A DNA stretch of 64,000 bases from Candidatus Cloacimonadales bacterium (GTDB lineage: Bacteria; Cloacimonadota; Cloacimonadia; Cloacimonadales; JAIOQZ01): positions 3,712,001 to 3,776,000 of the forward strand of contig OY762463.1 in the NCBI GenBank assembly GCA_963665815.1, given 5' to 3'. Both the position numbers and the translations under genes were made by a program. The notes under the pieces were generated by a model. The model was given only the letters and a program-made list of their open reading frames with translations. It was not told where the DNA came from and made no database searches. Below, piece after piece: positions 42,812 through 58,040 of this stretch. The number at the start of each line of letters is the position of its first letter. The first letter of the stretch is position 1.

Positions 42812-42812
42812 T

Positions 42813-43826
42813 ATGGAAAAAAAAATAAAAACAAAAATAGAGTTTATCTCATTAGATGATCTGAAATCGGTTCTGATGAACCAGATTGTGGTTCTTGATA
42901 AAAAAGTATACATACATTACAGAAGTTTGTTCAGTAAAACTGAGAGATTTCTGTTTACTCCCAATGAGGATAACAAGAACTTATATACTGTCAGGAAGAT
43001 ATATTCTTTCCTTGATAAGATAAATGCAGTTAGAACAGATACAGTGTATTCTACAGGTGGTGGAATTACAACAGATATTGGTGGATTTGCAGCTGCCACT
43101 TTTAAAAGAGGAATGAAGTCTGTTCTTATTCCAACTACTCTACTAAGTATGGTCGATGCCGCGGTAGGAGGAAAAACCGGAGTTAATTTCAGGGGATCCA
43201 AAAATCTCGTAGGAGTTTTTAATCAACCTGAAAAAGTATATATTTGCATGGATTTCCTGAAAAGTCTATCTGAAAAACAGATAGGGGAGGGTTTAGCAGA
43301 GATTCTGAAGATTGGTATTGTTGCAGGCAAACATATTCTTAAGGATCTTTCAGGAGAAAACATATCCGAGGATATCATCAGAAAGGCAATTGAGCTGAAA
43401 ATAAGCGTTTGCGAACAAGATGTGTATGACCACTCTGCGAGAATGATGCTTAACTTCGGGCATACTTTTGCTCATGCAGTGGAGAAAGCCTCCGGTTATT
43501 CTGTATCTCATGGCAATGCCGTAAGTTATGGAATGATCACAGCAATAGAAATAAGTGAGAAGTTGGGACTCCTGAAATCCTATACATCAGAGGAAATGAA
43601 GTCTTTAATGAAAGGATTGAATTTAGACTACCAGTTAAGTGATGAAATTGCTGCAAGATTGCTTAAGAAATGTGATCACTATTTCCTCAAGGATAAGAAG
43701 AAATCCAATTATATAAGATTTGTGTTGTTGGAAGATCTTGAGAAACCTTTAATCTCGAATAATAATCAGGAATCTGAGATTATAGAGCTATTTAAAGCTA
43801 AACTGGGAAAGCAATTACGTAAATAA
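42813..43826 (+). CDS. aroB: 3-dehydroquinate synthase
   Basis: GGGITTDIGGF, PTTLLSMVDAAVGGKTGVN, LNFGHTFAHAVE, HGNAV; start at 42813. Confidence 0.93.
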   Translation: MEKKIKTKIEFISLDDLKSVLMNQIVVLDKKVYIHYRSLFSKTERFLFTPNEDNKNLYTVRKIYSFLDKINAVRTDTVYSTGGGITTDIGGFAAATFKRGMKSVLIPTTLLSMVDAAVGGKTGVNFRGSKNLVGVFNQPEKVYICMDFLKSLSEKQIGEGLAEILKIGIVAGKHILKDLSGENISEDIIRKAIELKISVCEQDVYDHSARMMLNFGHTFAHAVEKASGYSVSHGNAVSYGMITAIEISEKLGLLKSYTSEEMKSLMKGLNLDYQLSDEIAARLLKKCDHYFLKDKKKSNYIRFVLLEDLEKPLISNNNQESEIIELFKAKLGKQLRK

Positions 43827-43868
43827 AAAAAACAGCCTGTCTTTAGTGTTACAGGCTGCTTCTTTTCT
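43825..43868. terminator. Bidirectional terminator between aroB and degQ
   Basis: CAGCCTGT/ACAGGCTG stem flanked by an A run and a T-rich run. Confidence 0.75.
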
Positions 43869-43879
43869 ATACAGGTGTA

Positions 43880-45319
43880 CTATTTGATATTGACTGTCAG
43901 GAATTTGTAAATCCCATTTTTTGATACTACATGAAAGAGCACTAATGAACCTGAGTAATCCTTATCGATTTTATCAAGAATCTTATCAAAATCTTTTACA
44001 TTTTTAATTCTGCTATTGTTGATCTCCAGTATAGTATCTCCTACCGATAAACTGGATGATGCCGCGAAGGATTCCGGTTCGATGTTTGTTATTACAACAC
44101 CTTCTAAATCCTTAAGTCCCATTCTTCTGGCAATATCCGAGTCGCTGTCTACAACATCAAGGCCTAAACCTGAGTTATTATCCTTACTTTCGCTTCTTGA
44201 CGCAACACTTCTATCAGGGAATTCTTCTAACTTAGCATAGATATTTTTGTGTTTACCATCTCTGATGATACCAAGGTTTACTTTCTTATTGATTTCTTTA
44301 TTAGCAATCTGAATTCTGAATTTAGCAAGATTTTCAACTGTTTTTCCGTCGATTTCAATTATTACATCACCTTTTTTAAGTCCGGCTTTATCAGCAGGAG
44401 TATCATCTTCAACTTTAGCTATAAGAACTCCATTCAGATCTTCAAGGTTCATCATTTTACCTAAATCTTCTGTCAGTTCCTGTGGTAACACTCCAAGATA
44501 AGCTCTGACAACTTTTCCCTTATCCATGATATCGTTAACTACTTTCTTTACCAGATTAACAGGGATTGCAAAACCGATACCCACATTTCCACCGGCAGGT
44601 GAAGTTATAGCAGCATTGACTCCTATAACTTTGCCATGAATATCTACCAACGGACCTCCACTGTTCCCCGGATTAATTGCTGCATCTGTTTGAATGTAGT
44701 CCTGATAAACAGGAGAATCTGAACCGAAATTAAGATTTGATCTACCTTTAGCAGAAATAACACCTACAGTAACTGTTCTGTCCAGACCAAGCTGACCAAA
44801 CGGATTACCGATGGCAATTGCCCAGTCACCTATTTCGAGAGACTCCGAATCTCCCAACGGGATTTTTGAAAGAGGAAAGTCTTTATTTTTCTCAATTTTG
44901 ATTACAGCAAGATCTGTTGATGGATCTCGACCAACGATTTCGCCTTTATACTTGTGCTTTTCTCCAATAGAAACCGTTATATCCCCTTCAGTCTGCACAA
45001 CGTGATTATTCGTGATTATATAAGCGTGTTTAGAATCTGTTTTGTATATGAATCCTGATCCCATTTGAGTAGATTTTCTTGAATTGGGCATTCTGGGAGC
45101 AAAAAATTTGAAAAAATCATCATCAAATGGTGAACTGTATGTTCTGCCCCTGAGTTTTATTTCAGACTCAACTTTGATATTTACTACGGCATCTCTGGTA
45201 TTTTTTACTACCTCTACAAAAGGAGATTTTCCATCACTGTTTACAGGTGGATAAGCTGAAAGCATGGTTGTAAATAATGATATTGCAACCAGTAAGATTA
45301 CTAATTTCATGTTTCTCAT
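43880..45319 (-). CDS. degQ: DegP/DegQ (HtrA) serine endoprotease with two PDZ domains
   Basis: TNNHVV, DLAV, QTDAAINPGNSGGPL; signal peptide from the ATG at 45319 after SD GGAGG. Confidence 0.93.
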   Translation of the reverse strand: MRNMKLVILLVAISLFTTMLSAYPPVNSDGKSPFVEVVKNTRDAVVNIKVESEIKLRGRTYSSPFDDDFFKFFAPRMPNSRKSTQMGSGFIYKTDSKHAYIITNNHVVQTEGDITVSIGEKHKYKGEIVGRDPSTDLAVIKIEKNKDFPLSKIPLGDSESLEIGDWAIAIGNPFGQLGLDRTVTVGVISAKGRSNLNFGSDSPVYQDYIQTDAAINPGNSGGPLVDIHGKVIGVNAAITSPAGGNVGIGFAIPVNLVKKVVNDIMDKGKVVRAYLGVLPQELTEDLGKMMNLEDLNGVLIAKVEDDTPADKAGLKKGDVIIEIDGKTVENLAKFRIQIANKEINKKVNLGIIRDGKHKNIYAKLEEFPDRSVASRSESKDNNSGLGLDVVDSDSDIARRMGLKDLEGVVITNIEPESFAASSSLSVGDTILEINNSRIKNVKDFDKILDKIDKDYSGSLVLFHVVSKNGIYKFLTVNIK

Positions 45320-45466
45320 TTTGGTTCCTCCAATTATTGATTTTTCATTTATTATAACTTTCATGAGATTTCTTTGTTACATCAATTATGATTTATTTTG
45401 ATGAATATTGTAAAAAATATTAGTTTACACAAGCTCTATGAATGATATTATTGTATCGGTAAAAAT

Positions 45467-45934
45467 ATGAAAAAAACAGAATTCAGAAAAAGTTTTAAAC
45501 TTGATGAAACTATCAGGGAAATAGTAAATCCTCGAAATGAGATTAAAATAAGCAGACCCTTGCTGGGGCATAAACTTCCGGCAGGTTTTCCTTCTCCGGC
45601 AGATGATTATATTGAGAAAAGTCTGGATTTGAATGAGTATCTTATTGCTCATCCTGCAGCTACATTCTTTATTAGAGTAGAAGGTGATTCCATGATAGGT
45701 GCCGGTATTCATGATAATGATATCCTTATTGTAGACAGAGCACTTGATGCCGGAGATAATTCAATTATTATTGCAGCCCTTGATGGATATCTGACAGTTA
45801 AAAGATTGATAAAGACAGATAAACTTTGGTACCTGCATCCCGAGAATTCTGATTATGAAGATATCAACCTGGAAGAGGGAAGTGACTTTACTATCTGGGG
45901 TGTTGTGACTTACGTTATCCATAAAGCTGAGTAA
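45467..45934 (+). CDS. umuD: DNA polymerase V subunit UmuD
   Basis: AGFPSPADDY, VEGDSM, TVKRL. Confidence 0.93.
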   Translation: MKKTEFRKSFKLDETIREIVNPRNEIKISRPLLGHKLPAGFPSPADDYIEKSLDLNEYLIAHPAATFFIRVEGDSMIGAGIHDNDILIVDRALDAGDNSIIIAALDGYLTVKRLIKTDKLWYLHPENSDYEDINLEEGSDFTIWGVVTYVIHKAE

Positions 45935-45937
45935 TCA

Positions 45938-47218
45938 ATGGATGTTTTTGCCTTAGTAGACTGCAATAGCTTTTATGCTTCTTGTGAAAAGGTTTTTAAC
46001 CCTTCTTTGAGGGATAAGCCTGTTGCTGTTCTTTCCAATAATGATGGAATAATTGTTGCCCGATCAAAGGAAGTAAAAGAACTTGGAATCCCAATGGGGC
46101 AGCCTGTTTTCAAGATAGAACATCTTATCAGGAAACATGATGTTAAACTTTTTTCATCAAACTATACATTATATGCAGATTTATCCAGAAGAGTAATGGA
46201 GACGCTTAAAACATTCAGTCCTCAAGTGGAAGTTTATTCAATTGATGAAGCATTTGTGATTTTTCCTCTTAATACAGTACAAAGCTGTTCTCTTCGAGAA
46301 TACGGACTAAAGATTAAGAGAACTGTTGAGAAATGGACAGGAATTCCTGTTTCTGTAGGGATTGGTCCCAGTAAGACTCTGGCAAAGCTGGCAAACAGAC
46401 TGGCAAAGAAACGTCCTGAACTGGAAGGCATATACAGTCTTGTAAATTATAAAAATATAGATAGAATTCTGGATAGTGTGGATGTCAGTGAATTATGGGG
46501 GATAGGACGTCAATATGCAAAACTGCTCAAGAATGCAGGTATCAGAACAGCAAGACAGTTAAAGGAAGCTCCTGATCAATGGGTAAGAGAATATATGACG
46601 GTTGTGGGACTAAGGCTTGTTCATGAATTGAGGGGGATTCCTTGTTATGACGTTGAGCTGGAAGTAGACCCCAAAAAGGGAATTGTCAGTTCCAAATCTT
46701 TCGGGAGGTTAACATCTGATTTCGATGAGATCAGAGAATCGGTTGCAAGTTACACAGCCAGAGCTGCCGAAAAACTCAGGGCTCAAAAATCTGTCACAAG
46801 TTTTATTACCGTGTTTATAACAACAAATCCTTATAAAAAGGAAATGCCACAGTATGGGAATGTATTGACACGTGCATTCAAAGCTCCCACAGCAGATTCA
46901 TCCGTAATGATTAAGATGGCTTGCAGTATTTTTGAAAAGATTTACAAACCGGGTTTTCTTTACAAGAAATCCGGCGTTATGCTTACCGGAATAACTCATC
47001 AGGATGATGTTCAATACGATGCATTTACTAAGGCATATGTTGAGACAGAAGGAAAGACCGTAATGGAGATTATTGATAAGATTAACAAAGAACATGGTAG
47101 AGGCACAATTCAGATTGCCTCTATGGGAACAGAAAAAAAATGGAATATGAAAAGAAGTAAATTGTCTCCCCGATATACAACATCCTGGGATGAGCTGCCT
47201 AAAACACGAAACAAATAA
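45938..47218 (+). CDS. umuC: DNA polymerase V subunit UmuC (Y family)
   Basis: DCNSFYASCE, LSNNDG, YSIDEAF, LSPRYTT.W. Confidence 0.95.
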   Translation: MDVFALVDCNSFYASCEKVFNPSLRDKPVAVLSNNDGIIVARSKEVKELGIPMGQPVFKIEHLIRKHDVKLFSSNYTLYADLSRRVMETLKTFSPQVEVYSIDEAFVIFPLNTVQSCSLREYGLKIKRTVEKWTGIPVSVGIGPSKTLAKLANRLAKKRPELEGIYSLVNYKNIDRILDSVDVSELWGIGRQYAKLLKNAGIRTARQLKEAPDQWVREYMTVVGLRLVHELRGIPCYDVELEVDPKKGIVSSKSFGRLTSDFDEIRESVASYTARAAEKLRAQKSVTSFITVFITTNPYKKEMPQYGNVLTRAFKAPTADSSVMIKMACSIFEKIYKPGFLYKKSGVMLTGITHQDDVQYDAFTKAYVETEGKTVMEIIDKINKEHGRGTIQIASMGTEKKWNMKRSKLSPRYTTSWDELPKTRNK

Positions 47219-48145: not shown

Positions 48146-48209
48146 AGAAAAAAGACACAGAACAAAGGGCAAGGAAGCCCGGAAAAAACAATCATCAAGG
48201 AGGATGAAC

Positions 48210-49172
48210 ATGTCACTCTTTATTAACAACAACCAGTATGCATTAAATGCATCAAACAACTTAAGATCTCATTACGCTAACATGGGTAAGTCAATTGAAA
48301 GACTTACAACAGGTTTGAGAATTAACTCAGCAAGAGACGATGCTGCCGGAATGGCTGTCAGAGAAGAAATGAGATCTGACATTGCAACTTACAATCAAGG
48401 CATCAGAAATGCAGAAATGGCAATTAACATGCTTCAGACTGCAGAAAGCTCAATGGCAATCATCGATGAAAAGCTCATGAGAATGAAACAACTTGCAGAA
48501 CAAGCTGCAACCGGAACTTACACACATGAGCAAAGACAGATTATTCACTCAGAATTTGCTGCAATGGCTGCCGAAATTGACCGTATCGCTGAATCAACCG
48601 AGTTTGGCGGAAGAAAACTTCTCAACGGTGACTTATCTACAGATGCTCACAACAACATAACTGTTGGTGGATGGCTTCAATCAGGTCCTGCTACATTAAC
48701 AGCAGACAATTATGACAGTGATGGCGAATATCGTCACAATGTTGGTGTAAAAGTTCACTTTGGTCTCACAAACAATCGTCTTGAAGACTATTACTTCATT
48801 AACATTGGAGATATGACAACAAACGGACTGTTTGAGAAGGTTGGAAACGAAACAGATACAGCAGCAAGCAAAATTTCTGTATCAACTCAGCACGTAGCTC
48901 AGATTGCACTTGAGCAACTTGATTCAGCTATTCTTGAGAAAGAACACCAGAGAGCTCACCTTGGTTCAATGATGGTAAGGCTTGAAAACACAATAGCTCA
49001 CCTTCAGTCACAATCAGAAAACCTTCAGGCTGCGGAATCACAGATTTCAGATGTTGATGTAGCATCAGAAATGACAGAATTCGTAAAAAGTCAGGTTTTA
49101 ACACAGGCTGCAGTTGGAATGCTTGCTCAAGCTAATTCTCTTCCACAAATGGCTCTCCAGTTACTTGGATAA
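48210..49172 (+). CDS. fliC: Flagellin 1 (most divergent copy)
   Basis: RLTTGLRINSARDDAAG...ISDVDVASEM...QANSLPQ; start 48210 fits SD AGGAGG spacing. Confidence 0.95.
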   Translation: MSLFINNNQYALNASNNLRSHYANMGKSIERLTTGLRINSARDDAAGMAVREEMRSDIATYNQGIRNAEMAINMLQTAESSMAIIDEKLMRMKQLAEQAATGTYTHEQRQIIHSEFAAMAAEIDRIAESTEFGGRKLLNGDLSTDAHNNITVGGWLQSGPATLTADNYDSDGEYRHNVGVKVHFGLTNNRLEDYYFINIGDMTTNGLFEKVGNETDTAASKISVSTQHVAQIALEQLDSAILEKEHQRAHLGSMMVRLENTIAHLQSQSENLQAAESQISDVDVASEMTEFVKSQVLTQAAVGMLAQANSLPQMALQLLG

Positions 49173-49375
49173 TAAAAGAAAGATATAATCTCAAAAACAA
49201 GCTTCAGATAAAAAGAAATAATTACGAATAGAAAACAGATTTTTGACAAGAAAATAGATGTGATGTGATAGATGTGTTACCTGGCACAAATATCAAAACG
49301 CACTCATAGCAGAAGCTAAATTATGAGTAACTCGTTCCCAACACAAGGATGATTCACTCATCAAGGAGGAAAAAG

Positions 49376-50335
49376 ATGTCACTCGTAATTAACCATAATC
49401 TGATGGCTATGAACACAGCAAGAAACCTGACTTCGGCATATGGAAGATTAGGTAATTCAGTAGAAAGACTTTCAACAGGATTGAGAGTAAATTCAGCTGC
49501 AGACGATGCAGCCGGACTCGCAATTCGTGAGAGCATGAGAGCAGAAATTGCTTCTCTTAATCAAGGTGTCCGTAATGCACAGGATGGTATCTCAATGATC
49601 CAGACAGCAGAAGGTGCAATGGCGGTAATTGATGAAAAACTGATTCGTATGAAAGAGCTTGCAGAACAGGCTGCTACAGGAACATATACTAACGATCAAA
49701 GAATGATTATTCATTCTGAGTTCGCAGCAATGGCTTCTGAAATCGATAGAATCGCAACAGCGACAGATTTCAATGGAGTTCATCTGCTTGACGGTAATGT
49801 GTCAATGGCAGGAACAAATGGTCAATGGACCTCAACAAACAACTGGACTGCAACAGAAGGTCTCTGGACAAATAGTTCCGGATGGCAGGAAGTTAATGGT
49901 ACTGCTGCTGCAAACGGAGATGTTACCGGTGGTGTAAAAATCCACTTTGGCTCCGGAAACAGCAGAGCAGAAGACTATTACTTCTTCAGAATCGGTGATA
50001 TGAGAACTTCATCTCTCGGAGTAGGTTCCGAAGATGTTGCTGTAAGTACACAGCACTCTGCACAGCTCGCACTTGAAAGAATAAACACAGCTATCATCAG
50101 GAAAGAAAATGCGCGTGCTCAACTTGGAGCTATTCAAAACAGACTTGAAAACACGATAACTAATATCTCAATTCAGGCTGAGAATATCCAGGCATCTGAG
50201 TCACGTATTTCCGACGTTGATGTAGCTCAAGAAATGACTGAATTTACCCGTAATCAAATCCTTACACAGTCCGCAGTAGGTATGCTTGCACAAGCAAATT
50301 CATTACCTCAGATGGCACTAAGATTGATCGGTTAA
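49376..50335 (+). CDS. fliC: Flagellin 2
   Basis: MSLVINHN...RLSTGLRVNSAADDAAG...SRISDVDVA; start after AGGAGG. Confidence 0.97.
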   Translation: MSLVINHNLMAMNTARNLTSAYGRLGNSVERLSTGLRVNSAADDAAGLAIRESMRAEIASLNQGVRNAQDGISMIQTAEGAMAVIDEKLIRMKELAEQAATGTYTNDQRMIIHSEFAAMASEIDRIATATDFNGVHLLDGNVSMAGTNGQWTSTNNWTATEGLWTNSSGWQEVNGTAAANGDVTGGVKIHFGSGNSRAEDYYFFRIGDMRTSSLGVGSEDVAVSTQHSAQLALERINTAIIRKENARAQLGAIQNRLENTITNISIQAENIQASESRISDVDVAQEMTEFTRNQILTQSAVGMLAQANSLPQMALRLIG

Positions 50336-50467
50336 CTATTGAGTGGATTATTTTCTCATAGATTGGTTTGGTTAAGCCTAGAAATGTCAGCAGATATGCC
50401 ATAATCGTATGAGACATTTGTCTTATACAGTATCATGGAAGTACATTCAACCAATCAAGGAGGAAAG

Positions 50468-51427
50468 ATGTCACTCGTAATAAATCATAACCTGATGGCG
50501 ATGAATACAGCCAGAAATCTTACAACATCCTACGGTAACTTGAGTACATCCGTTCAAAGACTTTCAACAGGACTGCGTATTAATTCAGCAGCAGATGATG
50601 CTGCAGGATTGGCAATCCGTGAAGGTATGAGAGCTGAAATAGCTGCTATTAATCAAGGAGTTAGAAATGCTCAGGATGGTATCTCAATGATCCAGACAGC
50701 TGAAGGTGGTATGGCGGTAATTGACGAAAAGTTAATTCGTATGAAAGAATTGGCAGAACAGGCAGCTACCGGTACATATACAAACGAACAAAGAATGATT
50801 ATTCATTCTGAATTCTCAGCAATGGCCGCAGAAATCGATAGAATCGCAACAGCGACCGATTTCAATGGAATTCACTTATTAAACGGTAACGTTTCAATAG
50901 CTGGATCTAACGGTCAATGGACATCTTCAAATACATGGACAGCAACTGAAGGCTTGCATACAAACAGTAGTGGATGGCAAGAAACTAATGGAACAGCAGC
51001 AGCAAATGGAGACATCACAGGTGGAGCTAAGATTCACTTTGGACCTGCCAATGACAGGGCTGAAGATTATTACTTCATCAGAATCGGTGATGTTCGAACA
51101 AGCGCATTAGGTATCGGAGCATCTGAGGTAGCTGTAAGTACTCAGCACTCAGCTCAGCTTGCTCTCGAAAAACTAAACACAGCAATGGTCCGTAAGGAAA
51201 ATGCTCGTGCTGCACTTGGTGCTGTCCAGAATCGTCTGGAAAACACCATTACAAACTTATCCATCCAAGCTGAAAATGTTCAGGCTGCAGAATCGAGAAT
51301 TTCTGATGTTGACGTAGCACAAGAAATGACCGAGTTCACAAGAAATCAGATACTGACACAATCCGCAGTAGGTATGTTAGCGCAAGCTAATTCATTACCA
51401 CAAATGGCACTCAGACTTATAGGTTAG
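50468..51427 (+). CDS. fliC: Flagellin 3
   Basis: Flagellin N- and C-terminal domains; start after AGGAGG. Confidence 0.97.
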   Translation: MSLVINHNLMAMNTARNLTTSYGNLSTSVQRLSTGLRINSAADDAAGLAIREGMRAEIAAINQGVRNAQDGISMIQTAEGGMAVIDEKLIRMKELAEQAATGTYTNEQRMIIHSEFSAMAAEIDRIATATDFNGIHLLNGNVSIAGSNGQWTSSNTWTATEGLHTNSSGWQETNGTAAANGDITGGAKIHFGPANDRAEDYYFIRIGDVRTSALGIGASEVAVSTQHSAQLALEKLNTAMVRKENARAALGAVQNRLENTITNLSIQAENVQAAESRISDVDVAQEMTEFTRNQILTQSAVGMLAQANSLPQMALRLIG

Positions 51428-51510
51428 ATTGAGAGGCTTCTTTCCATAATTCGAGATTGGTTTGGTTCCCCGGCAAACAGCAGAATGTCGGCTGTATAAG
51501 ACTAATGTCT

Positions 51511-51550
51511 TATATTAGCAAGGATGACTAATATACCAATCAAGGAGGAA
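51511..51550 (+). promoter_or_regulatory. CsrA-type binding sites in the flagellin 4 leader (equivalents at 48167-48180, 49344-49351, 50434-50441)
   Basis: TATATTAG-CAAGGATGA-CTAATATA hairpin with GGA in the loop, plus CAAGGAGG over the SD. Confidence 0.65.
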
Positions 51551-51552
51551 AG

Positions 51553-52512
51553 ATGTCACTCGTAATAAACCATAATTTGATGGCGTCGAATACTGCAAGA
51601 AATCTTACTGATTCTTACGGTCGTCTCGGCACGTCAGTGATGAGATTGTCTACAGGGCTACGTATCAATTCAGCAGCGGACGACGCTGCAGGTCTCGCAA
51701 TACGTGAAGGAATGAGAGCTGAAGTTGCATCATTGAATCAGGGAGTTAGAAATGCCCACGATGGTATTTCCATGATTCAAACAGCAGAAGGTGCAATGGC
51801 AGTTATCGATGAAAAACTTATACGTATGAAAGAGTTAGCAGAGCAAGCCGCTACCGGAACGTATACTAACGAGCAACGCTTGATTATACATTCCGAGTTT
51901 TCAGCAATGGCAGCTGAAATTGATAGAATAGCCACAGCCACAGATTTCAACGGGGTTAAGCTTCTGAATGGAAATGTCTCTATAGCCGGATCCGGTGGTT
52001 CCTGGTCTTCAACGAATACCTGGAGCGCTACAGAAGGCTTATGGACAAACAGTAGTGGTTGGCAGGAAGTTTCTGGTTCTGCCGATGCAAACGGTAATGT
52101 TACCGGTGGTGCAAAAATTCACTTCGGACCTGCTAATGACAGGGCTGAAGATTACTACTTTGTACGTATAGGTGATGTGCGAACAAGTGCTTTGGGAATT
52201 GGCTCAGCTGATGTTGCAGTCAGTACTCAGGATGCTGCACAGGCTGCTCTCGAGAAAATCAATACGGCTATGATTCGTAAAGAGAACGCTCGGGCTGCAC
52301 TCGGTGCTGTTCAAAACCGATTGGAGAACACAATAACTAACTTGTCAATTCAAGCTGAGAATATTCAGTCAGCAGAATCTCGTGTCTCAGATGTGGACGT
52401 AGCTCTGGAAATGACAGAATTTGTGAGAAATCAAATTCTAACACAGGCTGCAGTCGGAATGCTTGCACAAGCTAATTCGTTGCCTCAAATGGCTTTGCGT
52501 CTGATAGGATAA
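51553..52512 (+). CDS. fliC: Flagellin 4
   Basis: Flagellin N- and C-terminal domains; start after AGGAGG. Confidence 0.97.
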   Translation: MSLVINHNLMASNTARNLTDSYGRLGTSVMRLSTGLRINSAADDAAGLAIREGMRAEVASLNQGVRNAHDGISMIQTAEGAMAVIDEKLIRMKELAEQAATGTYTNEQRLIIHSEFSAMAAEIDRIATATDFNGVKLLNGNVSIAGSGGSWSSTNTWSATEGLWTNSSGWQEVSGSADANGNVTGGAKIHFGPANDRAEDYYFVRIGDVRTSALGIGSADVAVSTQDAAQAALEKINTAMIRKENARAALGAVQNRLENTITNLSIQAENIQSAESRVSDVDVALEMTEFVRNQILTQAAVGMLAQANSLPQMALRLIG

Positions 52513-52599
52513 CGTTAAGCATAGGATGGATGATCTGGAAGTATATCGTCCAGAATTTGCGTAAGCTAAGTTAAGCAAATTCTCCCAACTATAATTCAT

Positions 52600-52928
52600 T
52601 GTTTCGCAAGAAACACAGCCAAGTATATATAAAAACCTGCTTATATTGGCTATATGGTTTATAAGACCATATGTAATATACTCTCGTAATAAACAAACAC
52701 TTAATCAAATATAGAATTATGGATTGCGGAGACACAATAAGAGAATAAGTTACAAATAGTTTTGGCAAAATCTGCTGTGGCAATGTCATCTAATAATCTG
52801 TCAGATGGCATTGGGAGTGCTAGGCTAACCGAACCAGATGGGTGGGGGACGCTCCGCCCATCAAATTATAAATCTATCACAAAGATCATCACTTACTTGG
52901 CTGCAGGATTATTGCAGCCTTTTTTTTT
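52600..52928 (+). ncRNA. Candidate structured non-coding RNA of unknown family
   Basis: TATAAT at 52590; GNRA-capped hairpin; 10-bp closing stem 52616-52625/52894-52903; three internal stems with plus-strand G-U pairs; terminal terminator. Confidence 0.5.
52899..52928 (+). terminator. Plus-strand intrinsic terminator overlapping the sigma-factor stop codon
   Basis: GGCTGCA-GGATTAT-TGCAGCC followed by T9. Confidence 0.75.
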
Positions 52929-53817
52929 CTTCGATCTCTTTGATTTCTTTATATGAAAAGCTGCCTTTTGGAGCATTACGTATTGTTCTTATCAGTGATT
53001 TGTTTTTAGATTTAAAAAAATTAGGTTTTCTAATATTGAATATTTTTAATCTGTTCAATTTATTTATTTTGAAACCTATGCATAGAAAAAAAACATCTTT
53101 GTTCTCGTCAACACAGAATAAGGTCATTAAATATCCGGATTCATTGATTCTGATTCCCCAGTCTCTTATTGAATGTATACTGAATTCAGGCATATTCTCC
53201 AATTTGAAATCCTGAAAATAACTTTTTAATGATATAAGATTATTTTCTCCGGTTTTCTTTATGAGAAGCTTAATAAAGTTACCCACATTTTCATATTGCT
53301 GATAAGTAAGAATATTCTTTGTCCAGGTTAAACCTTGTTCTTTCAGTATTGCAGCTTTCAAATTTCTCCTCATCCTTTGAACATATTTCTGAGCAGTTTT
53401 CAGCTTTATATCATTTTTTTTTGCAATTTCAGCAGAACTAAGTTGTTTAACGAAATAGTATTTATATATTTTTAAATCCAGTTTACTAAGGTGTTGCCTA
53501 AGTACTTCAAAAGGAATATCATCCTTATGTTTTTCAATTTCCTCATCATATGAAGGAATCTCATAGTTCACTTGTTCCTTAAGTGCTTCAAGTGATCTTA
53601 CTCTTTCACGTTTTTTTAATACATTTAGAGACATGTTATAGGCTACTTTGTACAACCAGCTCTTAGGGTGTTTTATCTCCTGTTCCTGAATGTAAAACTT
53701 ATAAAAGGCGTTCTGAACAATATCTTCTGCATCATCCGTATTTGAAGTTATACTGTATGCATAGTTAAAAATCTGGTATCTCAACTGAGCAAACAGTTGA
53801 TCAGTTATTTTTGTCAT
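52909..53817 (-). CDS. ECF-type sigma-70 factor with a ~150-aa C-terminal extension
   Basis: Region 2 DAEDIVQNAF...SWLYKVAYN; region 4 LSSAEIAKKNDIKLKTAQKYVQRMR; overlaps the selA 3' end by 17 nt. Confidence 0.85.
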   Translation of the reverse strand: MTKITDQLFAQLRYQIFNYAYSITSNTDDAEDIVQNAFYKFYIQEQEIKHPKSWLYKVAYNMSLNVLKKRERVRSLEALKEQVNYEIPSYDEEIEKHKDDIPFEVLRQHLSKLDLKIYKYYFVKQLSSAEIAKKNDIKLKTAQKYVQRMRRNLKAAILKEQGLTWTKNILTYQQYENVGNFIKLLIKKTGENNLISLKSYFQDFKLENMPEFSIHSIRDWGIRINESGYLMTLFCVDENKDVFFLCIGFKINKLNRLKIFNIRKPNFFKSKNKSLIRTIRNAPKGSFSYKEIKEIEEKKRLQ

Positions 53818-55192
53818 ACAGGGAAACCTTCAGGATCCGGGCAACAGAATCAGCAATGTACTGAAAATCTTTTGTATCTATACACAGAACATCAATAAGA
53901 ATAGTTCCTTCTCTTAACACACTCAGAATCGGCTTTTGTAGTTTCAGAAGGTCAAAAAAAAGTGAGTCTGTCTGTCTTGTATTTATATTGAGTTTCACAG
54001 CATAGCTGTTTCTCTTAAAATCAGGTAATGTACCACCACCACATCGTCCGTAGCTTTCTGTTACATCAGAATTTACATTCTCTCCCCTAAGAGTATTTTT
54101 CAAGTTTTCAGCTTTTAACTTCACATCATCATCAGCAAGATTGAGGAGTTTGAATAAGGGCGTATTTTCCATAAGCCTTTCTTCAGAGAAATAATTGGAT
54201 ATAACAGAAATTAACGAGCTGATTGTCAGCTTACCAATTCTATAAGTACGCATAAGCTGGGAGGAGTGAATTTTTTTAACACACTCTGATTTACCTGAGA
54301 TTATGCCAGCCTGTGGTCCACCAAGCAGCTTATCACAACTGAATGTAACAATATCTGCTCCGGCATCAATACAACTTTTTACGTCAGGTTCCTCCAGAGG
54401 AAGAGATTCCGGTTTTCTGAGTAATCCTGAACCAATATCATAGATGACAGGAATGTTGTGTTTTTTGCCAAGCTTAATCAGTTCTTTAAGCTCAACATCA
54501 CTTGTAAAACCGGTTATATGGTAATTAGACTGATGCACTTTAATTATTGCTCCGGTATTCTCGTTGATTGCATTTTCGTAATCCTTGAGATGAGTTCTAT
54601 TAGTAGTGCCTATTTCAACCATTTCAGCACCACTGAGTTTCATTATCTCCGGAATACGGAAAGAACCGCCTATTTCCACGAGTTCACCACGAGACACAAT
54701 CACTTCTTTGTCTTTTGCCAGAGTGTTAAGAGTAAGGAATACAGCTGCAGCATTGTTGTTGACTGCTATGGAATCTTCTGCACCGGTAACATATTTCAGT
54801 ATAGCTTTCAAATGATAGTTACGGTTACCGCGACGACCTTTATCCAGATCAAATTCCAGATTTGAGTAACCGGATACTCTTTCTGCCAGATCATTAATCA
54901 CATTAGGTCCTAAAGGTGATCTGCCAAGATTTGTATGAATGATGATTCCTGATCCGTTAATAACAGGTTTTAATCCGGGTTCGGACAGCTTCTTGATGAA
55001 ATCATAAACGGAATCGATCCAGAACTGTTCGTTAGCATCAGGAATATTGTCTTTCAGCAGCTTATTTTTTTCCAGCTTTATTGCTTCTCTGGCACAATAG
55101 ACTAAAAAGGAATGATCGAAAGTGGATTTGAATTCTGCAAACATGTCATCTTGCAGGAGTTTTTCTATACTTGGAATATTAAGTGCATTCAT
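53801..55192 (-). CDS. selA: L-seryl-tRNA(Sec) selenium transferase
   Basis: VINGSGIIIHTNLGRS, YSNLEFDL, VNNNAAA, SRGELVEIGGSFRIP, FSCDKLLGGPQAG. True start is ATG 55192; the longer ORF in the track runs through the tRNA. Confidence 0.96.
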   Translation of the reverse strand: MNALNIPSIEKLLQDDMFAEFKSTFDHSFLVYCAREAIKLEKNKLLKDNIPDANEQFWIDSVYDFIKKLSEPGLKPVINGSGIIIHTNLGRSPLGPNVINDLAERVSGYSNLEFDLDKGRRGNRNYHLKAILKYVTGAEDSIAVNNNAAAVFLTLNTLAKDKEVIVSRGELVEIGGSFRIPEIMKLSGAEMVEIGTTNRTHLKDYENAINENTGAIIKVHQSNYHITGFTSDVELKELIKLGKKHNIPVIYDIGSGLLRKPESLPLEEPDVKSCIDAGADIVTFSCDKLLGGPQAGIISGKSECVKKIHSSQLMRTYRIGKLTISSLISVISNYFSEERLMENTPLFKLLNLADDDVKLKAENLKNTLRGENVNSDVTESYGRCGGGTLPDFKRNSYAVKLNINTRQTDSLFFDLLKLQKPILSVLREGTILIDVLCIDTKDFQYIADSVARILKVSLYDKNN

Positions 55193-55206
55193 ATTTTCCT
55201 CATTAT

Positions 55207-55301
55207 TGGCCGCGAGGGCAGGAATCGAACCTGCCACAGACGGTGTTATCCGCCTGCTACTGATTTTGCAGACCAGTTGGACCACCAGATCCGTCCTCGC
55301 T
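55207..55301 (-). tRNA. selC: tRNA-Sec-type tRNA with a GCA (Cys) anticodon
   Basis: (A)GCGAGG AC GGAUC-UGGU-GGUCC A ACUGGU-CU GCA AA-AUCAGU A GCAGGCGG-AUAACA-CCGUCUGU G GCAGG-UUCGAUU-CCUGC CCUCGCG G CCA. Extended D stem with 4-nt loop, 6-bp anticodon stem, long variable arm, G73, encoded CCA; anticodon at 55267-55269; ends 14 nt before selA. Confidence 0.9.
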
Positions 55302-55340
55302 ATTAAGAAAGATTGAATATCTTATTCAATTTATTTACTA

Positions 55341-58040
55341 CTAATAATTATTGGCAATCAATTTTTTAACTTGTACGGCTGTAACTTTGTATTCAGGGAT
55401 TTTTGCGACTGGATCAATTTCTTTGTGGGTAAGTCGGTTCGCAGGACTTTCATGGAAATGAAAAGAAATGAAAACCACACCTTTTTTTATTCTATCAGTA
55501 ACTTCAGCTGCAATTGTAATTTCGCCTCTTGCTGATGAAACGGAAACGAATTCGCCATTATCAATACTTCTTTGAGCTGCGTCAAATGGAGATATTTTTA
55601 TTGTTGGAGGTGATAACCGATCGAACTCTTCACTTTTCCTTATCATTGTCCCTGTATGGAATTGATGCGCCAGACGTCCGGTAGTAAGAATCAGTGGGTA
55701 TTCACGGCTGCAAATTTCATAAGGTGGAACATAGTCCACGATTTTAAACTTTGGAAGTCCAATTGGAAAGCTATTTTCGTGAAGAATACTTGTACCAGGG
55801 TGTTCAATATCCGGGCATGGCCACTGAATTCCGTCTTCTTCGGTTCTATCAGATGTAATACCTCTATAGAATGGGATAGTCTCGTTGATTTCTCTGGTAA
55901 TATCCTCAGAATTCGAGTATTCCCAGTTATAACCCATTGCATTAGCGAGGTCAGTAACAATCTTCCAGTCATTTTCAACTAATCCAGGAGCATCAGTTGC
56001 TTTTCTCAGCTTCTGCACTCTACGCTCTGTGTTTGTGAAATGTCCTGTCTTTTCAGAGAAACAGGCTGCCGGTAGAACAATGTCAGCCATTTCAGCAGTT
56101 TCGGTCATGAATATATCCTGAACAATCAGCAAATCAAGGTTTTTAAGAGCTTTAATAGTGTGGGTCTGGTCCGGATCACTCAATACAGGATTTTCTCCCA
56201 TAACGTATATAGCTTTAATATCTCCAGATATGGCACTGTCCAGCATTTCTGTGATCGTTAATCCCGACTTATTGCTAATGTCAGATTTCCAGTAATCTGC
56301 GAATCTTTCTATAGCTTCAGGATTGGATACTTTTGCATAGCCCGGAAGAGTATCCGGAAGACAACCAACATCACAAGCACCCTGTACATTGGATTGTCCC
56401 CTGAGTGGATTGACTCCAGCTCCGGGAATACCAATGTTCCCACACATTAACTGTAGATTTGCCAGAGCGAGTACATTCTGGTATCCAGATGTGTGCTGCG
56501 TTATGCCCATTGCAAAATAAACAGCAGCGGTTTTTGCTTTTCCGAACAGTTCTCCAATCTCGTAAAGTGTTGAAGCTTTAATACCTGCTATCTCTTCAAT
56601 CGTTTCAGGTGCATACTTTGTCATAAGCATCTCATTTTTAAAGAGAGTCCATGAGTCCAAGTCAGTACGAGACTTAATATACTCTGGATCGAACAGGTTC
56701 TTTTTAATAATGACATGTATGATTGAGTTAATCAAAGCAGTATCTGATCCCGGTTTCTGGGATGCATAGATTGAAGCAAATTTTGCCAATTCAATTTTTT
56801 TGGGATCAATTACAATAAGCTTGGTGTTATGAAACTTAACAGCCTGCTTGATTTTGTTTCCAATTATTGGATGAGCGGCTGTTGTGTCAGAACCAATTAC
56901 AAGGATTGCATCAGCTTTATGGATATCCTGTAAATTGTTCGTCATTGCACCACTTCCAAGAGATTCTGCAAGACCTGCAACTGTTGACGCATGACATAAT
57001 CTTGCACAATGATCAACATTATTATTACCTATGCAAGTCCGAAAAAATTTCTGGAAAAGATAATTATCTTCGTTTGAACACTTTGCTGAAGAAAAACCTC
57101 CGATAGCATTACTGCCGTTTTCATTAATAATCTTTTGGAATTTATCAGCAATGATTTCGATTACAGTATTCCAGTCTGTCGGAACATGTTTTCCATTTTG
57201 TTTTATAAGTGGAGTTGTCAAACGTCTGTCAGAATGAACAAATCTGAATCCGAATCTGCCTTTACTGCATAGCATACCGTTATTGACTTCAGAATCCTCA
57301 ACTCCCCTAATGCGAATGATCTCACCGGTTTTCTTGAGTGTATGAATTTCAATGTTGCATCCCACTCCACAATATGTGCAGATGGATCTGATTTTATCAA
57401 TCTCTCTGTCTCGATATGCTCTTTTAGAGTTTTTGTCGTAAATTGCTCCTACAGGACAAAGCTGAGAGCATTCTCCACATTGAACACAACTTGATTCACC
57501 GAGTTTTTTATTGTAGTCTATGGTAATTCTTGTATTTCCACCTCTGTCAGCGAAGTTGATTACTTCGTTAACAACAGTATTGTTACAACCGCTTACACAA
57601 TTCCCACAACTGATGCATTTATCAATGTCTTTTACGATGAACTCAGATGATGTGTCAGGTTTATTAAGTCTTTCACCAATAACATAATCATCCATCTCTG
57701 AATAGAATACTGCATCCTGTAATGCACAATGAAGGTTTGCCGGACAGTTTAGACAGCTATGATTACCTGATTCAAGAATAAGTTTAAGGATCATGGTAAC
57801 TGTATGTCTAACCATTTTGGACTTGGTTCTTACTTCCATGTTCGGTGAGACTGGAGTGGAACATGCAGGTACGAGCCTATTGGCAACTTCAACAAGACAG
57901 ACGCGGCAGTTACCGCAAATTCCTGTTTTAGGGTGATAACACAAGTGAGGAATATACATATTGTTCCTCATGGCGCATTGCAGAATTGTCTCGTTTTCTT
58001 TTGCCTGCAGAACCTGATTGTTAATTTTTATGGAAAACAT
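55341..58040 (-). CDS. fdhF: Formate dehydrogenase alpha subunit (Mo/W-bisPGD) with an N-terminal NuoG/HydA-like FeS module
   Basis: 2Fe-2S, HxCxxC and 2x4Fe-4S motifs; CTYCGVGC; DHCARLCHAST; PLRGQSNVQGACD; KIPEYK. Confidence 0.95.
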   Translation of the reverse strand: MFSIKINNQVLQAKENETILQCAMRNNMYIPHLCYHPKTGICGNCRVCLVEVANRLVPACSTPVSPNMEVRTKSKMVRHTVTMILKLILESGNHSCLNCPANLHCALQDAVFYSEMDDYVIGERLNKPDTSSEFIVKDIDKCISCGNCVSGCNNTVVNEVINFADRGGNTRITIDYNKKLGESSCVQCGECSQLCPVGAIYDKNSKRAYRDREIDKIRSICTYCGVGCNIEIHTLKKTGEIIRIRGVEDSEVNNGMLCSKGRFGFRFVHSDRRLTTPLIKQNGKHVPTDWNTVIEIIADKFQKIINENGSNAIGGFSSAKCSNEDNYLFQKFFRTCIGNNNVDHCARLCHASTVAGLAESLGSGAMTNNLQDIHKADAILVIGSDTTAAHPIIGNKIKQAVKFHNTKLIVIDPKKIELAKFASIYASQKPGSDTALINSIIHVIIKKNLFDPEYIKSRTDLDSWTLFKNEMLMTKYAPETIEEIAGIKASTLYEIGELFGKAKTAAVYFAMGITQHTSGYQNVLALANLQLMCGNIGIPGAGVNPLRGQSNVQGACDVGCLPDTLPGYAKVSNPEAIERFADYWKSDISNKSGLTITEMLDSAISGDIKAIYVMGENPVLSDPDQTHTIKALKNLDLLIVQDIFMTETAEMADIVLPAACFSEKTGHFTNTERRVQKLRKATDAPGLVENDWKIVTDLANAMGYNWEYSNSEDITREINETIPFYRGITSDRTEEDGIQWPCPDIEHPGTSILHENSFPIGLPKFKIVDYVPPYEICSREYPLILTTGRLAHQFHTGTMIRKSEEFDRLSPPTIKISPFDAAQRSIDNGEFVSVSSARGEITIAAEVTDRIKKGVVFISFHFHESPANRLTHKEIDPVAKIPEYKVTAVQVKKLIANNY
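56967..56996 (-). promoter_or_regulatory. SECIS-like hairpin downstream of the active-site UGU codon
   Basis: UGU CAU GCG UCA ACA GU UGCA-GGUCU-UGCA; compare E. coli fdhF UGA CAC GGC CCA UCG GU UGCA-GGUC-UGCA. Confidence 0.55.

What the first reader, a model, noticed from the sequence alone, without database searches (positions are those of the whole stretch)
52590..52928. Unexplained ~330-nt structured RNA candidate converging on an extended ECF sigma factor
Seen on the plus strand: TATAAT (52590); TGTTTC-GCAA-GAAACA (52600-52615); a perfect 10-bp long-range pair CAGCCAAGTA (52616-52625)/TACTTGGCTG (52894-52903). This pair encloses a long hairpin at 52642-52680, a multi-loop hairpin at about 52761-52833 (core CAATGTCATCT/AGATGGCATTG) and GATGGGTGG/CCGCCCATC (52837-52862). 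A terminator with T9 follows. The non-canonical pairs are G-U on the plus strand, which argues for RNA-level selection. I see no tmRNA, RNase P, SRP, 6S or riboswitch consensus. Inference: a new ncRNA class, possibly a partner of the adjacent sigma factor or of the flagellin/CsrA circuit.
Basis: partly seen in the sequence, partly recalled or inferred. Interest (0 to 1): 0.72.

Follow-up and report, generated by a model that had tools for sequence, protein, structure and literature searches.

The report
Flagellin-array tail RNA pairing with flagellar leaders
A 109-base structured RNA element that closes the flagellin gene array in flagellated Cloacimonadota is complementary to the leaders of the P-ring gene flgI and of certain flagellin genes, so it looks like a new base-pairing regulator of flagellum synthesis.

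Summary
That core matches no Rfam family. It occurs once per genome, in 20 of 23 flagellin-bearing and 0 of 128 flagellin-less genomes sampled from the order (record titles: Candidatus Cloacimonadota). It always follows the last gene of a tandem flagellin array on the same strand.

The core has two covarying hairpins (P1, and P2, which is the terminator in many lineages). It also has two nearly invariant unpaired segments. Its 5' two-thirds derive from the last ~80 nt of a flagellin coding sequence but evolve without codon periodicity.

The unpaired segments are complementary to:
- the 5' arm and a hairpin loop of flagellin leaders, most strongly the third gene of each array;
- 15-19 contiguous nt of the flgI leader, 400 kb away, in 9 of 9 genomes tested, with compensatory changes and wobble pairs only in the sense orientation.

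Best reading (0.62): an RNA at the 3' end of the flagellin transcript that base-pairs with flagellar leaders. The direction of regulation is unknown. The link to the neighbouring sigma factor is not conserved, and no link to CsrA was found.

The parts
48204..52512 (+). Tandem array of four flagellin genes (ORFs 48204-49172, 49349-50335, 50435-51427, 51553-52512). The element follows the last one.
   Evidence: Pfam Flagellin_N and Flagellin_C in all four. Arrays of 4-6 flagellin genes ending in the element are also seen in G003, G022, G038 and G012.
50361..50395 (+). Leader of flagellin gene 3. The 5' arm (GATTGGTTTGGTTAAGCCTAG) is complementary to segment J of the element. A CAGCAGAT loop (50388-50395) is complementary to the element's 5' unpaired segment.
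   Evidence: RNAduplex with J gives -27.1 to -28.8 kcal/mol, z -5.8 to -6.6. The exact 12-mer GATTGGTTTGGT occurs in the genome only here and at 51455.
51455..51485 (+). Leader of flagellin gene 4: the same 5' arm motif and a CAGCAGAA loop, with weaker complementarity to the element.
   Evidence: J duplex -20.5 kcal/mol, z about -3; 5' segment -13.2 kcal/mol, z about -3. In the minimum-energy fold the 5' arm closes the leader against the bases just before the ribosome-binding site.
52513..52757 (+). Variable spacer between the flagellin stop codon and the conserved core.
   Evidence: Conserved only in the same-genus genome. The spacer is 37-610 nt long in other loci. Contigs of a metatranscriptome run cover it without a break. 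Similarity to the gene-4 leader is weak (z 2.4; 12 of 300 shuffles as good).
52758..52866 (+). Conserved core of the RNA element (match to covariance model R1).
   Evidence: 121.3 bits, E 2.7e-29, and the only strong match in the genome. One match in each of 20 of 151 genomes of the order. 30 distinct full-length sequences were collected.
52767..52780 (+). 5' unpaired conserved segment (AAAATCTGCTGTGG), complementary to the CAGYAGAT loop of flagellin leaders.
   Evidence: ATCT-CTGTG is invariant apart from one G/A position. The best duplex site falls at -68 to -89 in 18 of 20 leaders.
52781..52813 (+). Hairpin P1 with a variable distal part.
   Evidence: Eight pairs, three with changes on both sides, 97.9% of cells paired. 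Homologous to the flagellin codons for A-M..Q-A-N..M-A-L.
52814..52836 (+). Unpaired junction J. AGGCTAACCGAACC (52822-52835) is identical in all 30 sequences. It is the main pairing segment.
   Evidence: Invariant. Complementary to the 5' arms of flagellin leaders and to the flgI leader.
52837..52862 (+). Hairpin P2. Its 5' arm also belongs to the complement of the flgI leader.
   Evidence: Eleven pairs, eight with changes on both sides. It scores as a terminator (T-rich tail) in 17 of 30 sequences, but not in this window.
52899..52928 (+). Intrinsic terminator (8-bp stem, T9). It is the probable 3' end of the transcript in this genus and overlaps the stop codon of the convergent sigma gene.
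   Evidence: Terminator scan. 28 of 30 loci have a terminator-like site at P2 or within 150 nt after it.

Best explanation
Window 52758-52866 (+) is a member of an undescribed RNA family specific to flagellated Cloacimonadota.

Origin and transcription. The element arose from the 3' end of a flagellin gene copy. It is transcribed at the tail of the flagellin array, either as a 3' UTR or as an RNA cut from it. The transcript ends at P2 or at a terminator just after it.

Proposed action (inferred). Its two unpaired, nearly invariant segments act as pairing seeds.
- J (UAACCGAACC plus neighbouring bases and the 5' arm of P2) pairs with a 15-19 nt stretch in the sigma-54-type leader of flgI. That stretch sits directly before a leader terminator.
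- J also pairs with the 5' arm of flagellin leaders. Otherwise that arm closes the leader against the bases just upstream of the ribosome-binding site.
- The 5' segment (AAAUCUGCUG) pairs with a hairpin loop of the same flagellin leaders.
- In this way the RNA would couple late-gene (flagellin) output to flgI and to particular flagellin paralogues.

Shown: conservation, structure, position, complementarity, and co-variation between the loci.

Inferred: that pairing happens in the cell, whether it activates or represses, and whether the element acts on the leaders or the terminated flgI leader acts on the flagellin transcript.
For: Family and position
- No Rfam match for the window or for 12 homologous loci.
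- One copy per genome in 20 of 151 genomes of the order. Flagellin genes are in 23 of those 151, so 20 of 23 flagellin-bearing and 0 of 128 flagellin-less genomes carry the element.
- 19 of 20 first loci have a flagellin gene directly upstream on the same strand; the twentieth is cut by a contig end.

RNA-level selection
- Covarying helices with G-U pairs on the + strand.
- Conservation of 0.94/0.92/0.93 by codon position, against 0.81/0.96/0.59 in real flagellin 3' ends.

Origin
- A profile of flagellin 3' ends (own genus left out) was run on the 3.96-Mb genome. It ranks the element directly after the five flagellin-family genes, aligned over positions 5-84 of 84, E 0.096.

Transcription
- Contigs of a metatranscriptome run cover 52198-52876 without a break. 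They do not cover the sigma gene at 52912-53900.

Flagellin leaders
- J's best site is the GGTTYGG motif in 17 of 20 leaders. The 5' segment's best site is the CAGYAGA loop in 18 of 20.
- In five arrays the third gene has the strongest site, at -24 to -32 kcal/mol and z -5.3 to -8.5.
- The 5' arm closes the leader in 15 of 17 minimum-energy folds. The mean duplex of the arm with J is -13.2 kcal/mol, against -10.6 with its own partner.
- Control: real flagellin 3' ends are not complementary to leaders (mean z -0.5, against -0.04 for an internal control).

flgI leader
- Complement present in 9 of 9 element-bearing genomes from five families, at -34.8 to -41.9 kcal/mol and z -6.4 to -8.9.
- Matched pairs form uninterrupted helices of 15-19 bp. 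Compensatory changes: CCAGAU/AUCUGG, CCGGAU/AUCCGG, CCAAAU/AUUUGG and GGGU/ACCC versus GGGC/GCCC.
- All five non-Watson-Crick positions inside the matched helices are G-U wobbles when read as the + strand element against the sense leader. Only 6 of 20000 label permutations reach the observed fit.
- The one flagellated genome that lacks the element and has flgI (G043) carries a decayed site in one flgI copy and none in the other.
- In the own genome, near-exact anti-J 12-mers that lie upstream of a gene are found only at flgI, flagellin 3 and flagellin 4.
- A sigma-54-type -24/-12 match lies 58 nt upstream of the flgI site.
Against: - No transcript ends, strand or processing site are known. The RNA evidence is low-depth contigs (depth 2-4) from one run and gives no strand.
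- The transcription start of the flagellin leaders is unknown. If it lies downstream of GGTTTGG, the 5'-arm site would be promoter DNA, not RNA. The only support for its being RNA is the predicted closing helix.
- The element side of the helices is nearly invariant. The co-variation therefore rests on three or four changes among related genomes, which are not independent.
- Pairing with flgI needs P2 to open.
- In two genomes of another family (G022, G012) a further complementary block in the flgI leader lies in the wrong order for one continuous duplex (seen in the sequence printed).
- RNAalifold found no consensus structure on the raw leader alignment.
- The same data fit a shared DNA motif in inverted orientation, apart from the direction of the wobble pairs.
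- All genomes but a few are metagenome bins.
Confidence: 0.62

Rival explanations
1. A cis-acting 3' UTR element only: a stabilising or protein-binding structure at the end of the flagellin mRNA, with no base pairing to other RNAs.
For: It sits at the 3' end with a terminator hairpin. P1 and P2 covary. The invariant unpaired bases could be a protein site.
Against: This does not explain the 15-19 nt complement in the flgI leader 400 kb away, which changes in step with the element. Nor does it explain the sites at fixed positions in flagellin leaders.
Confidence: 0.12
2. A neutral relic of a truncated flagellin gene together with its terminator, with no function of its own.
For: Homology to the flagellin 3' coding end. 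P2 is terminator-like in 17 of 30 sequences.
Against: - The pieces are more conserved than the functional flagellin 3' ends: mean pairwise identity 0.83 against 0.71.
- There is no third-position relaxation, and a 14-nt stretch is invariant in 30 sequences.
- Changes in P1 are compensatory.
- The element is kept as a single copy in 20 of 23 flagellated genomes across seven families.
Confidence: 0.08
3. A DNA-level motif. The same about 18-bp site (GGTTYGGTTAGCC and flanks) occurs in either orientation at flagellar loci and is bound by a regulator, or serves as inverted repeats for recombination of the array.
For: The motif occurs near the start of flagellin leaders, in the flgI leader, and inverted in the element. 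Matched changes at two loci would also arise if a site co-evolved with its binding protein.
Against: - P1 and P2 have many G-U pairs that would be A-C mismatches on the other strand.
- The five non-Watson-Crick positions between element and flgI leader are all wobbles in the sense orientation.
- The flgI site lies downstream of the sigma-54-type promoter, inside the leader.
- All arrays seen are co-directional, and no contig in the three runs joins the array in inverted order.
Confidence: 0.08
4. A small protein gene: a 30-40 residue peptide (M..KILAKSAVAMS..) derived from the flagellin C-terminus.
For: In 12 of 30 loci an ATG lies in the flagellin-like frame. In eight of these it is preceded by GAGGTGAG right after the flagellin stop.
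Against: - There is no ATG, or an early stop, in the other 18 loci, this window included.
- The stop falls in three different registers.
- Indels in the P1 loop are not multiples of three.
- The few substitutions in the conserved block are non-synonymous, and synonymous ones are absent.
Confidence: 0.04

Closest known systems
FliX, the sRNA processed from the 3' UTR of E. coli fliC (eLife 2023, PMC10578931; passages read)
   Same: It lies in the 3' UTR of the flagellin gene and shares its terminator. It acts by base pairing within the flagellar regulon, including on flagellin mRNA itself.
   Different: - No sequence or structure relation was established. FliX itself was not compared here, and the window matches no Rfam family.
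- FliX pairs inside coding sequences (fliC, S10 operon) and binds Hfq.
- This element is complementary to 5' leaders (flgI, flagellin paralogues), derives from flagellin coding sequence, and its chaperone, if any, is unknown.
CJnc230 (FlmE) of Campylobacter jejuni, processed from the 3' end of the flgE mRNA (Nat Commun 2024, PMC11187230; abstract read)
   Same: An RNA at the tail of a flagellar structural-gene transcript that represses other flagellar mRNAs by pairing. It links two tiers of the flagellar hierarchy.
   Different: It differs in parent gene (hook, RpoN-dependent), in targets (flgM, Cj1387c) and in phylum, and no homology was seen. Here the late-gene transcript would address a sigma-54-type middle gene, or the reverse.
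sRNAs that open a self-inhibiting leader helix, such as DsrA or RprA on rpoS (recalled, not looked up here)
   Same: J is complementary to the 5' arm of a leader helix whose other arm abuts the ribosome-binding site. This is the geometry of anti-antisense activation.
   Different: Whether the closing helix inhibits translation here is not known. The effect could equally be on mRNA stability or on CsrA access.
Bacillus subtilis hag leader with the CsrA-FliW partner switch (recalled), and CsrB-type sponge RNAs
   Same: The flagellin leaders here carry AAGGA motifs before and at the ribosome-binding site. The genome encodes CsrA and FliW.
   Different: The element itself has no conserved GGA repeats, so it is not a CsrB-like sponge. 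CsrA control of the leaders is a separate layer that was not tested.

Membership tests
Any Rfam 15 family (tmRNA, RNase P, SRP, 6S, riboswitches, known sRNAs) | Match to the family covariance model at or near the gathering score | tested here: not met
   At gathering thresholds the window gives only tRNA-Sec at 55212-55300. Permissive scans of 52400-53100 and of 12 homologous loci give only chance-level hits of 13-31 bits against cut-offs of 35-90.
3' UTR-borne base-pairing sRNA (FliX / CJnc230 kind) | Lies downstream of the parent coding sequence on the same strand and ends at an intrinsic terminator | tested here: met
   A flagellin gene lies upstream in 19 of 20 loci. 27 of 30 distinct loci show the flagellin C-terminus 37-610 nt upstream; of the other three, one was missed by the ORF heuristic, one is cut and one holds Ns. 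A terminator lies at P2 or within 150 nt in 28 of 30.
3' UTR-borne base-pairing sRNA (FliX / CJnc230 kind) | Co-transcribed with, or processed from, the parent mRNA | tested here: inconclusive
   Metatranscriptome contigs run unbroken from the flagellin gene to 52876, with none on the sigma gene. But these are contigs at depth 2-4, from one run, without strand or end information.
3' UTR-borne base-pairing sRNA (FliX / CJnc230 kind) | Conserved unpaired seed complementary to conserved target sites, with co-variation | tested here: met
   flgI leader: 9 of 9 genomes, helices of 15-19 bp, 6 of 20000 permutations as good. Flagellin leaders: 17 and 18 of 20.
3' UTR-borne base-pairing sRNA (FliX / CJnc230 kind) | Binding to an RNA chaperone (Hfq, ProQ) and a measurable effect on targets | not testable with these tools
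   This needs expression experiments. The organisms are uncultured bins.
CsrB-type CsrA-sequestering RNA | Several conserved GGA motifs displayed in loops | tested here: not met
   The junction GGGAG reads GAGAGG in one clade and AGAGAA in another. The P2 loop lacks GGA in L061 and L057.
Plain intrinsic terminator | A GC-rich hairpin with a U run accounts for everything that is conserved | tested here: not met
   P2 fits in 17 of 30 sequences. The 75 nt before it, including a 14-nt invariant unpaired stretch and P1, are conserved as well.
Flagellin pseudogene fragment | Homology to flagellin coding sequence with neutral or codon-like evolution | tested here: not met
   Homology is present. The evolution is neither neutral nor codon-like: 0.94/0.92/0.93 by position, against 0.81/0.96/0.59 in real genes.

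The most novel reading that the evidence does not exclude
The element and the flgI leader form a trans-encoded antisense pair that works as an RNA checkpoint of flagellar assembly. The sigma-54-driven flgI leader ends at its own terminator and so yields a short RNA. That RNA pairs with J and opens P2, the protective 3' hairpin of the flagellin array transcript. Alternatively, the flagellin tail RNA controls read-through of the flgI leader terminator. Either way, basal-body and filament synthesis would be coupled by RNA alone. The regulator would have been born from the coding sequence of the very gene family it controls.
Probability: 0.3. Interest if true: 0.8.

Novelty: new variant of a known kind. 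Interest (0 to 1): 0.62.

Why it matters
Post-transcriptional control of flagella by RNAs from the ends of flagellar transcripts has been shown only in a few Proteobacteria and Campylobacter (PMC10578931, PMC11187230). This would be an independent invention in an uncultured phylum, found from sequence alone.

It has three unusual traits:
- The RNA descends from the flagellin coding sequence.
- It carries two seeds.
- Its best-supported partner is a leader that contains a terminator.

The co-variation between two loci 400 kb apart gives a directly testable pair of RNAs. It also gives a marker for the motile lineages of Cloacimonadota, which are common in anaerobic digesters and sediments.

Tried and rejected
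- Rfam at gathering and permissive thresholds on the window, on 12 homologous loci and on the flgI leader: nothing above chance.
- Earlier notes of this scan, by place, by sequence and by words: nothing relevant.
- Exact or near-exact complements of the seeds in the whole genome: the first crude scan gave only chance hits, one of them inside umuC.
- GATTGGTTTG-like hits at genome 2530530 and 2530660 are repeats of a tRNA 3' end, not flagellar promoters. A hit at 492852 lies inside a long ORF.
- Spacer 52513-52757 as a decayed flagellin leader: similarity is weak (z 2.4; 12 of 300 shuffles as good), so it is left open.
- RNAalifold on 17 leaders returned no structure, because MAFFT misaligned the variable parts. 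I used single-sequence folds instead.
- Sigma-54-type promoter pattern in the window: no match, so the flagellin genes are not driven by that pattern.
- Literature: searches for Cloacimonadota with flagellin; Cloacimon- with small RNA and flagell-; flagellin with UTR, structured RNA and motif; and flgI with sRNA terms. None found a description of this element. Journals outside the held library were not searched.

Full report
**Observation.** The stretch lies between the fourth gene of a flagellin array (51553-52512, +) and a convergent sigma-70-family gene (52909-53817, -). The terminator at 52899-52919 with T9 is the only terminator-like site in 52300-53200. The + strand of 52596-52930 folds with z -4.68 and the - strand with z -2.25. 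Rfam gives nothing here at gathering or permissive thresholds.

**What is conserved.**
- A DNA search of 60 relatives showed that only 52757-52882 recurs outside the genus. It does so at 76-87% identity in 18 genomes of several families. The rest of the proposed 330-nt RNA matches only the same-genus genome.
- I aligned 20 copies (A1) and built a covariance model (R1).
  - The model finds exactly one strong match in the own genome, at 52758-52866, 121 bits.
  - It finds one match in each of 20 of 151 genomes sampled from the order. It finds none in the three large families sampled (0 of 54, 0 of 54, 0 of 12).
  - A sample of the class added nothing convincing.
- A pattern scan of one genome per species found 20 records. 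Nineteen are titled Candidatus Cloacimonadota or Cloacimonadales and one is titled Fibrobacteria. A metagenome scan added 21 loci. Together these give 30 distinct full-length sequences.

**Context.**
- Flagellin genes occur in 23 of the same 151 genomes. All 20 genomes with the element are among them.
- The three flagellin-bearing genomes without the element are 64%, 83% and 91% complete.
- The element always follows a flagellin gene on the same strand. This holds in 19 of 20 first loci, and the twentieth is cut by a contig end. In 27 of 30 distinct loci the flagellin C-terminus lies 37-610 nt upstream.
- In complete arrays it follows the last of four to six tandem genes.
- Downstream neighbours differ from locus to locus. 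A sigma-70-family gene follows only in the own genus and in one other locus out of 13 tested. The sigma link is therefore incidental.

**Anatomy.** From 5' to 3' the core has four parts:
- an unpaired segment (52767-52780);
- hairpin P1 (52781-52813), with a variable tip;
- an unpaired junction J (52814-52836), whose 14 nt AGGCTAACCGAACC are identical in all 30 sequences;
- hairpin P2 (52837-52862).

RNAalifold on the MAFFT alignment predicts P1, P2 and a 3-bp closing helix. On the 30-sequence alignment 97.6% of cells pair and 11 of 22 pairs show changes on both sides. No shuffle of 500 reaches this, and slid controls pair in 36-58% of cells (that alignment is fitted to the model). Frequent G-U pairs fix the strand as +. 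P2 with its T-rich tail scores as a terminator in 17 of 30 sequences. Eleven others have a separate terminator within 150 nt, as this window does.

**Origin.**
- Weak model hits turned out to be the 3' ends of real flagellin genes.
- The element's first 75 nt align colinearly with the codons for ..ILAQSAVAMLAQAN..MALRLLG-stop.
- A profile of flagellin 3' ends from other genera was run on the whole genome. It finds the five flagellin-family genes and then the element: E 0.096, profile positions 5-84 of 84, with the next hit at E 0.94.
- Yet the element does not evolve like coding sequence. Conservation is flat across codon positions (0.94/0.92/0.93), against 0.81/0.96/0.59 in the genes. It is more conserved than the genes (0.83 against 0.71 mean pairwise identity).
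- A short ORF with a ribosome-binding-site-like sequence runs into it in one clade. It is absent or interrupted in 18 of 30 loci, this window included.

**Transcription.** One metatranscriptome run holds contigs that cover 52198-52876 without a gap and nothing over the sigma gene. This fits read-through from the flagellin gene. The evidence is weak: contigs only, depth 2-4, no strand.

**Complementarity to flagellin leaders.**
- The two unpaired segments are complementary, in antiparallel colinear order, to the leader of flagellin gene 3 (50361-50395; -27 to -29 kcal/mol, z about -6). The match to the gene-4 leader is weaker.
- Across 20 leaders J's best site is the motif GGTTYGG near -100 in 17. 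The 5' segment's best site is a CAGYAGA loop near -75 in 18. Several of these genomes are close relatives.
- In five arrays the third gene carries a near-perfect site, and the first two genes carry none.
- Single-sequence folds put the CAGYAGA motif in a hairpin loop. They pair the GGTTYGG arm with the bases just before the ribosome-binding site in 15 of 17 leaders, with matched changes in some. J would compete well for that arm (-13.2 against -10.6 kcal/mol on average).
- Real flagellin 3' ends show no such complementarity.
- The one variable base of the 5' segment (G/A) faces C, U or U in three clades (G-C, G-U, A-U).

**Complementarity to the flgI leader.**
- A weak model hit 400 kb away lies upstream of flgI.
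- In mRNA sense the flgI leader carries 16-17 nt exactly complementary to J plus the 5' arm of P2. A hairpin with a U run follows directly, and the start codon lies about 20 nt further on.
- A sigma-54-type -24/-12 match lies 58 nt upstream of the site, so the site is inside the leader (the consensus is recalled).
- The same arrangement holds in all nine element-bearing genomes tested, from five families, at -34.8 to -41.9 kcal/mol and z -6.4 to -8.9. The leader terminator is visible in five of the first six.
- The two loci change together. Three positions show compensatory changes. All five non-Watson-Crick positions inside the helices are G-U wobbles in the sense orientation. Matched pairs form 15-19 bp helices, and only 6 of 20000 label permutations fit as well.
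- G043 is flagellated but lacks the element. One of its flgI copies has a decayed site and the other has none. This is a single case, in a bin 91% complete.
- In the own genome, near-exact anti-J 12-mers upstream of genes occur only at flgI and at flagellin genes 3 and 4.
- The flgI leader matches no Rfam family.

**Interpretation.**
- The data fit an RNA at the tail of the flagellin transcript that pairs with leaders of flagellar genes.
- The closest known cases are FliX from the fliC 3' UTR of E. coli (PMC10578931, passages read) and CJnc230 from the flgE 3' end of C. jejuni (PMC11187230, abstract read).
- Which way regulation runs is not known. J could open the closing helix of flagellin leaders and so change translation or stability. 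It could affect the flgI leader terminator. Or the terminated flgI leader could act on the flagellin transcript by opening P2.
- Rivals are a purely cis-acting 3' UTR element, a neutral relic, a DNA motif and a small ORF. Each explains part of the data, but none explains both the strand-specific wobble pairs and the co-variation between the two loci.

**Limits.**
- The genomes are mostly metagenome bins and are related to one another.
- Transcription starts are unknown.
- The co-variation rests on few events.
- All energies are predictions.
- Literature searches in the held library found no earlier description.

Noticed in passing
window 53801-58040 (-): A tRNA-Sec gene (55212-55300, 52.8 bits) sits between selA (SelA domain, ORF 53801-55285) and a molybdopterin oxidoreductase of formate-dehydrogenase type (55341-58040). 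This is a compact selenocysteine locus. The long selA ORF overlaps the tRNA, so its true start is probably further downstream.
   Followed up: no
own genome C1:3356171-3356271 and flanks (L022:1527-1660, - strand): The flgI leader holds a sigma-54-type promoter match, a small hairpin, the site complementary to the element, and then a terminator-like hairpin with a U run about 20 nt before the start codon. It could be an attenuator or the source of a short leader RNA. It matches no Rfam family.
   Followed up: partly
L063, L047, L064, L060, L051, L062, L080 and relatives, just after the flagellin stop codon: In one clade GAGGTGAG-N3-ATG follows the flagellin stop codon directly. It opens a 30-40 codon ORF that runs into the element in the flagellin-like frame (peptide ..KILAKSAVAMS..). 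It is absent or broken in other clades.
   Followed up: partly
window 48146-52512 and homologous loci: Flagellin leaders share a hairpin TATAAGAC..GTCTTATA, an AAGGA motif and AATCAAGGAGG at the ribosome-binding site. This is reminiscent (from recall) of CsrA sites in the B. subtilis hag leader. csrA and fliW lie at genome 3350471-3352328, next to a flgL-like gene.
   Followed up: partly
window 52909-53817 (-): The sigma factor has regions 2 and 4 within its first 153 residues and about 150 further residues of no known family. In a relative's contig (run X5) the stretch 52928-53243 is replaced by 320 other letters, so this C-terminal extension is variable.
   Followed up: no
own genome C1:2530400-2530700 (L086:901-1200): A tRNA gene is followed by two direct repeats of its 3' part, each with the same 60-nt flank. 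This looks like the scars of integration at a tRNA gene.
   Followed up: no
own genome C1:324099-324998 (L087:1100-1999): A fifth, divergent flagellin gene (299 aa) lies outside the array. It has neither the leader motifs nor the element.
   Followed up: partly
window 40391-47218: Upstream of the array lie a PorZ-like protein with a type IX secretion sorting tail, a dehydroquinate synthase, an HtrA-type protease and a umuD/umuC pair. No other flagellar gene adjoins the array; only a 269-aa ORF shows a sub-threshold FlgN match.
   Followed up: no
G043 (L102, L103): This flagellated relative lacks the element. It has two flgI copies on different contigs and a 547-aa flagellin. It may carry a second or different flagellar system, or the bin may be mixed.
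   Followed up: no
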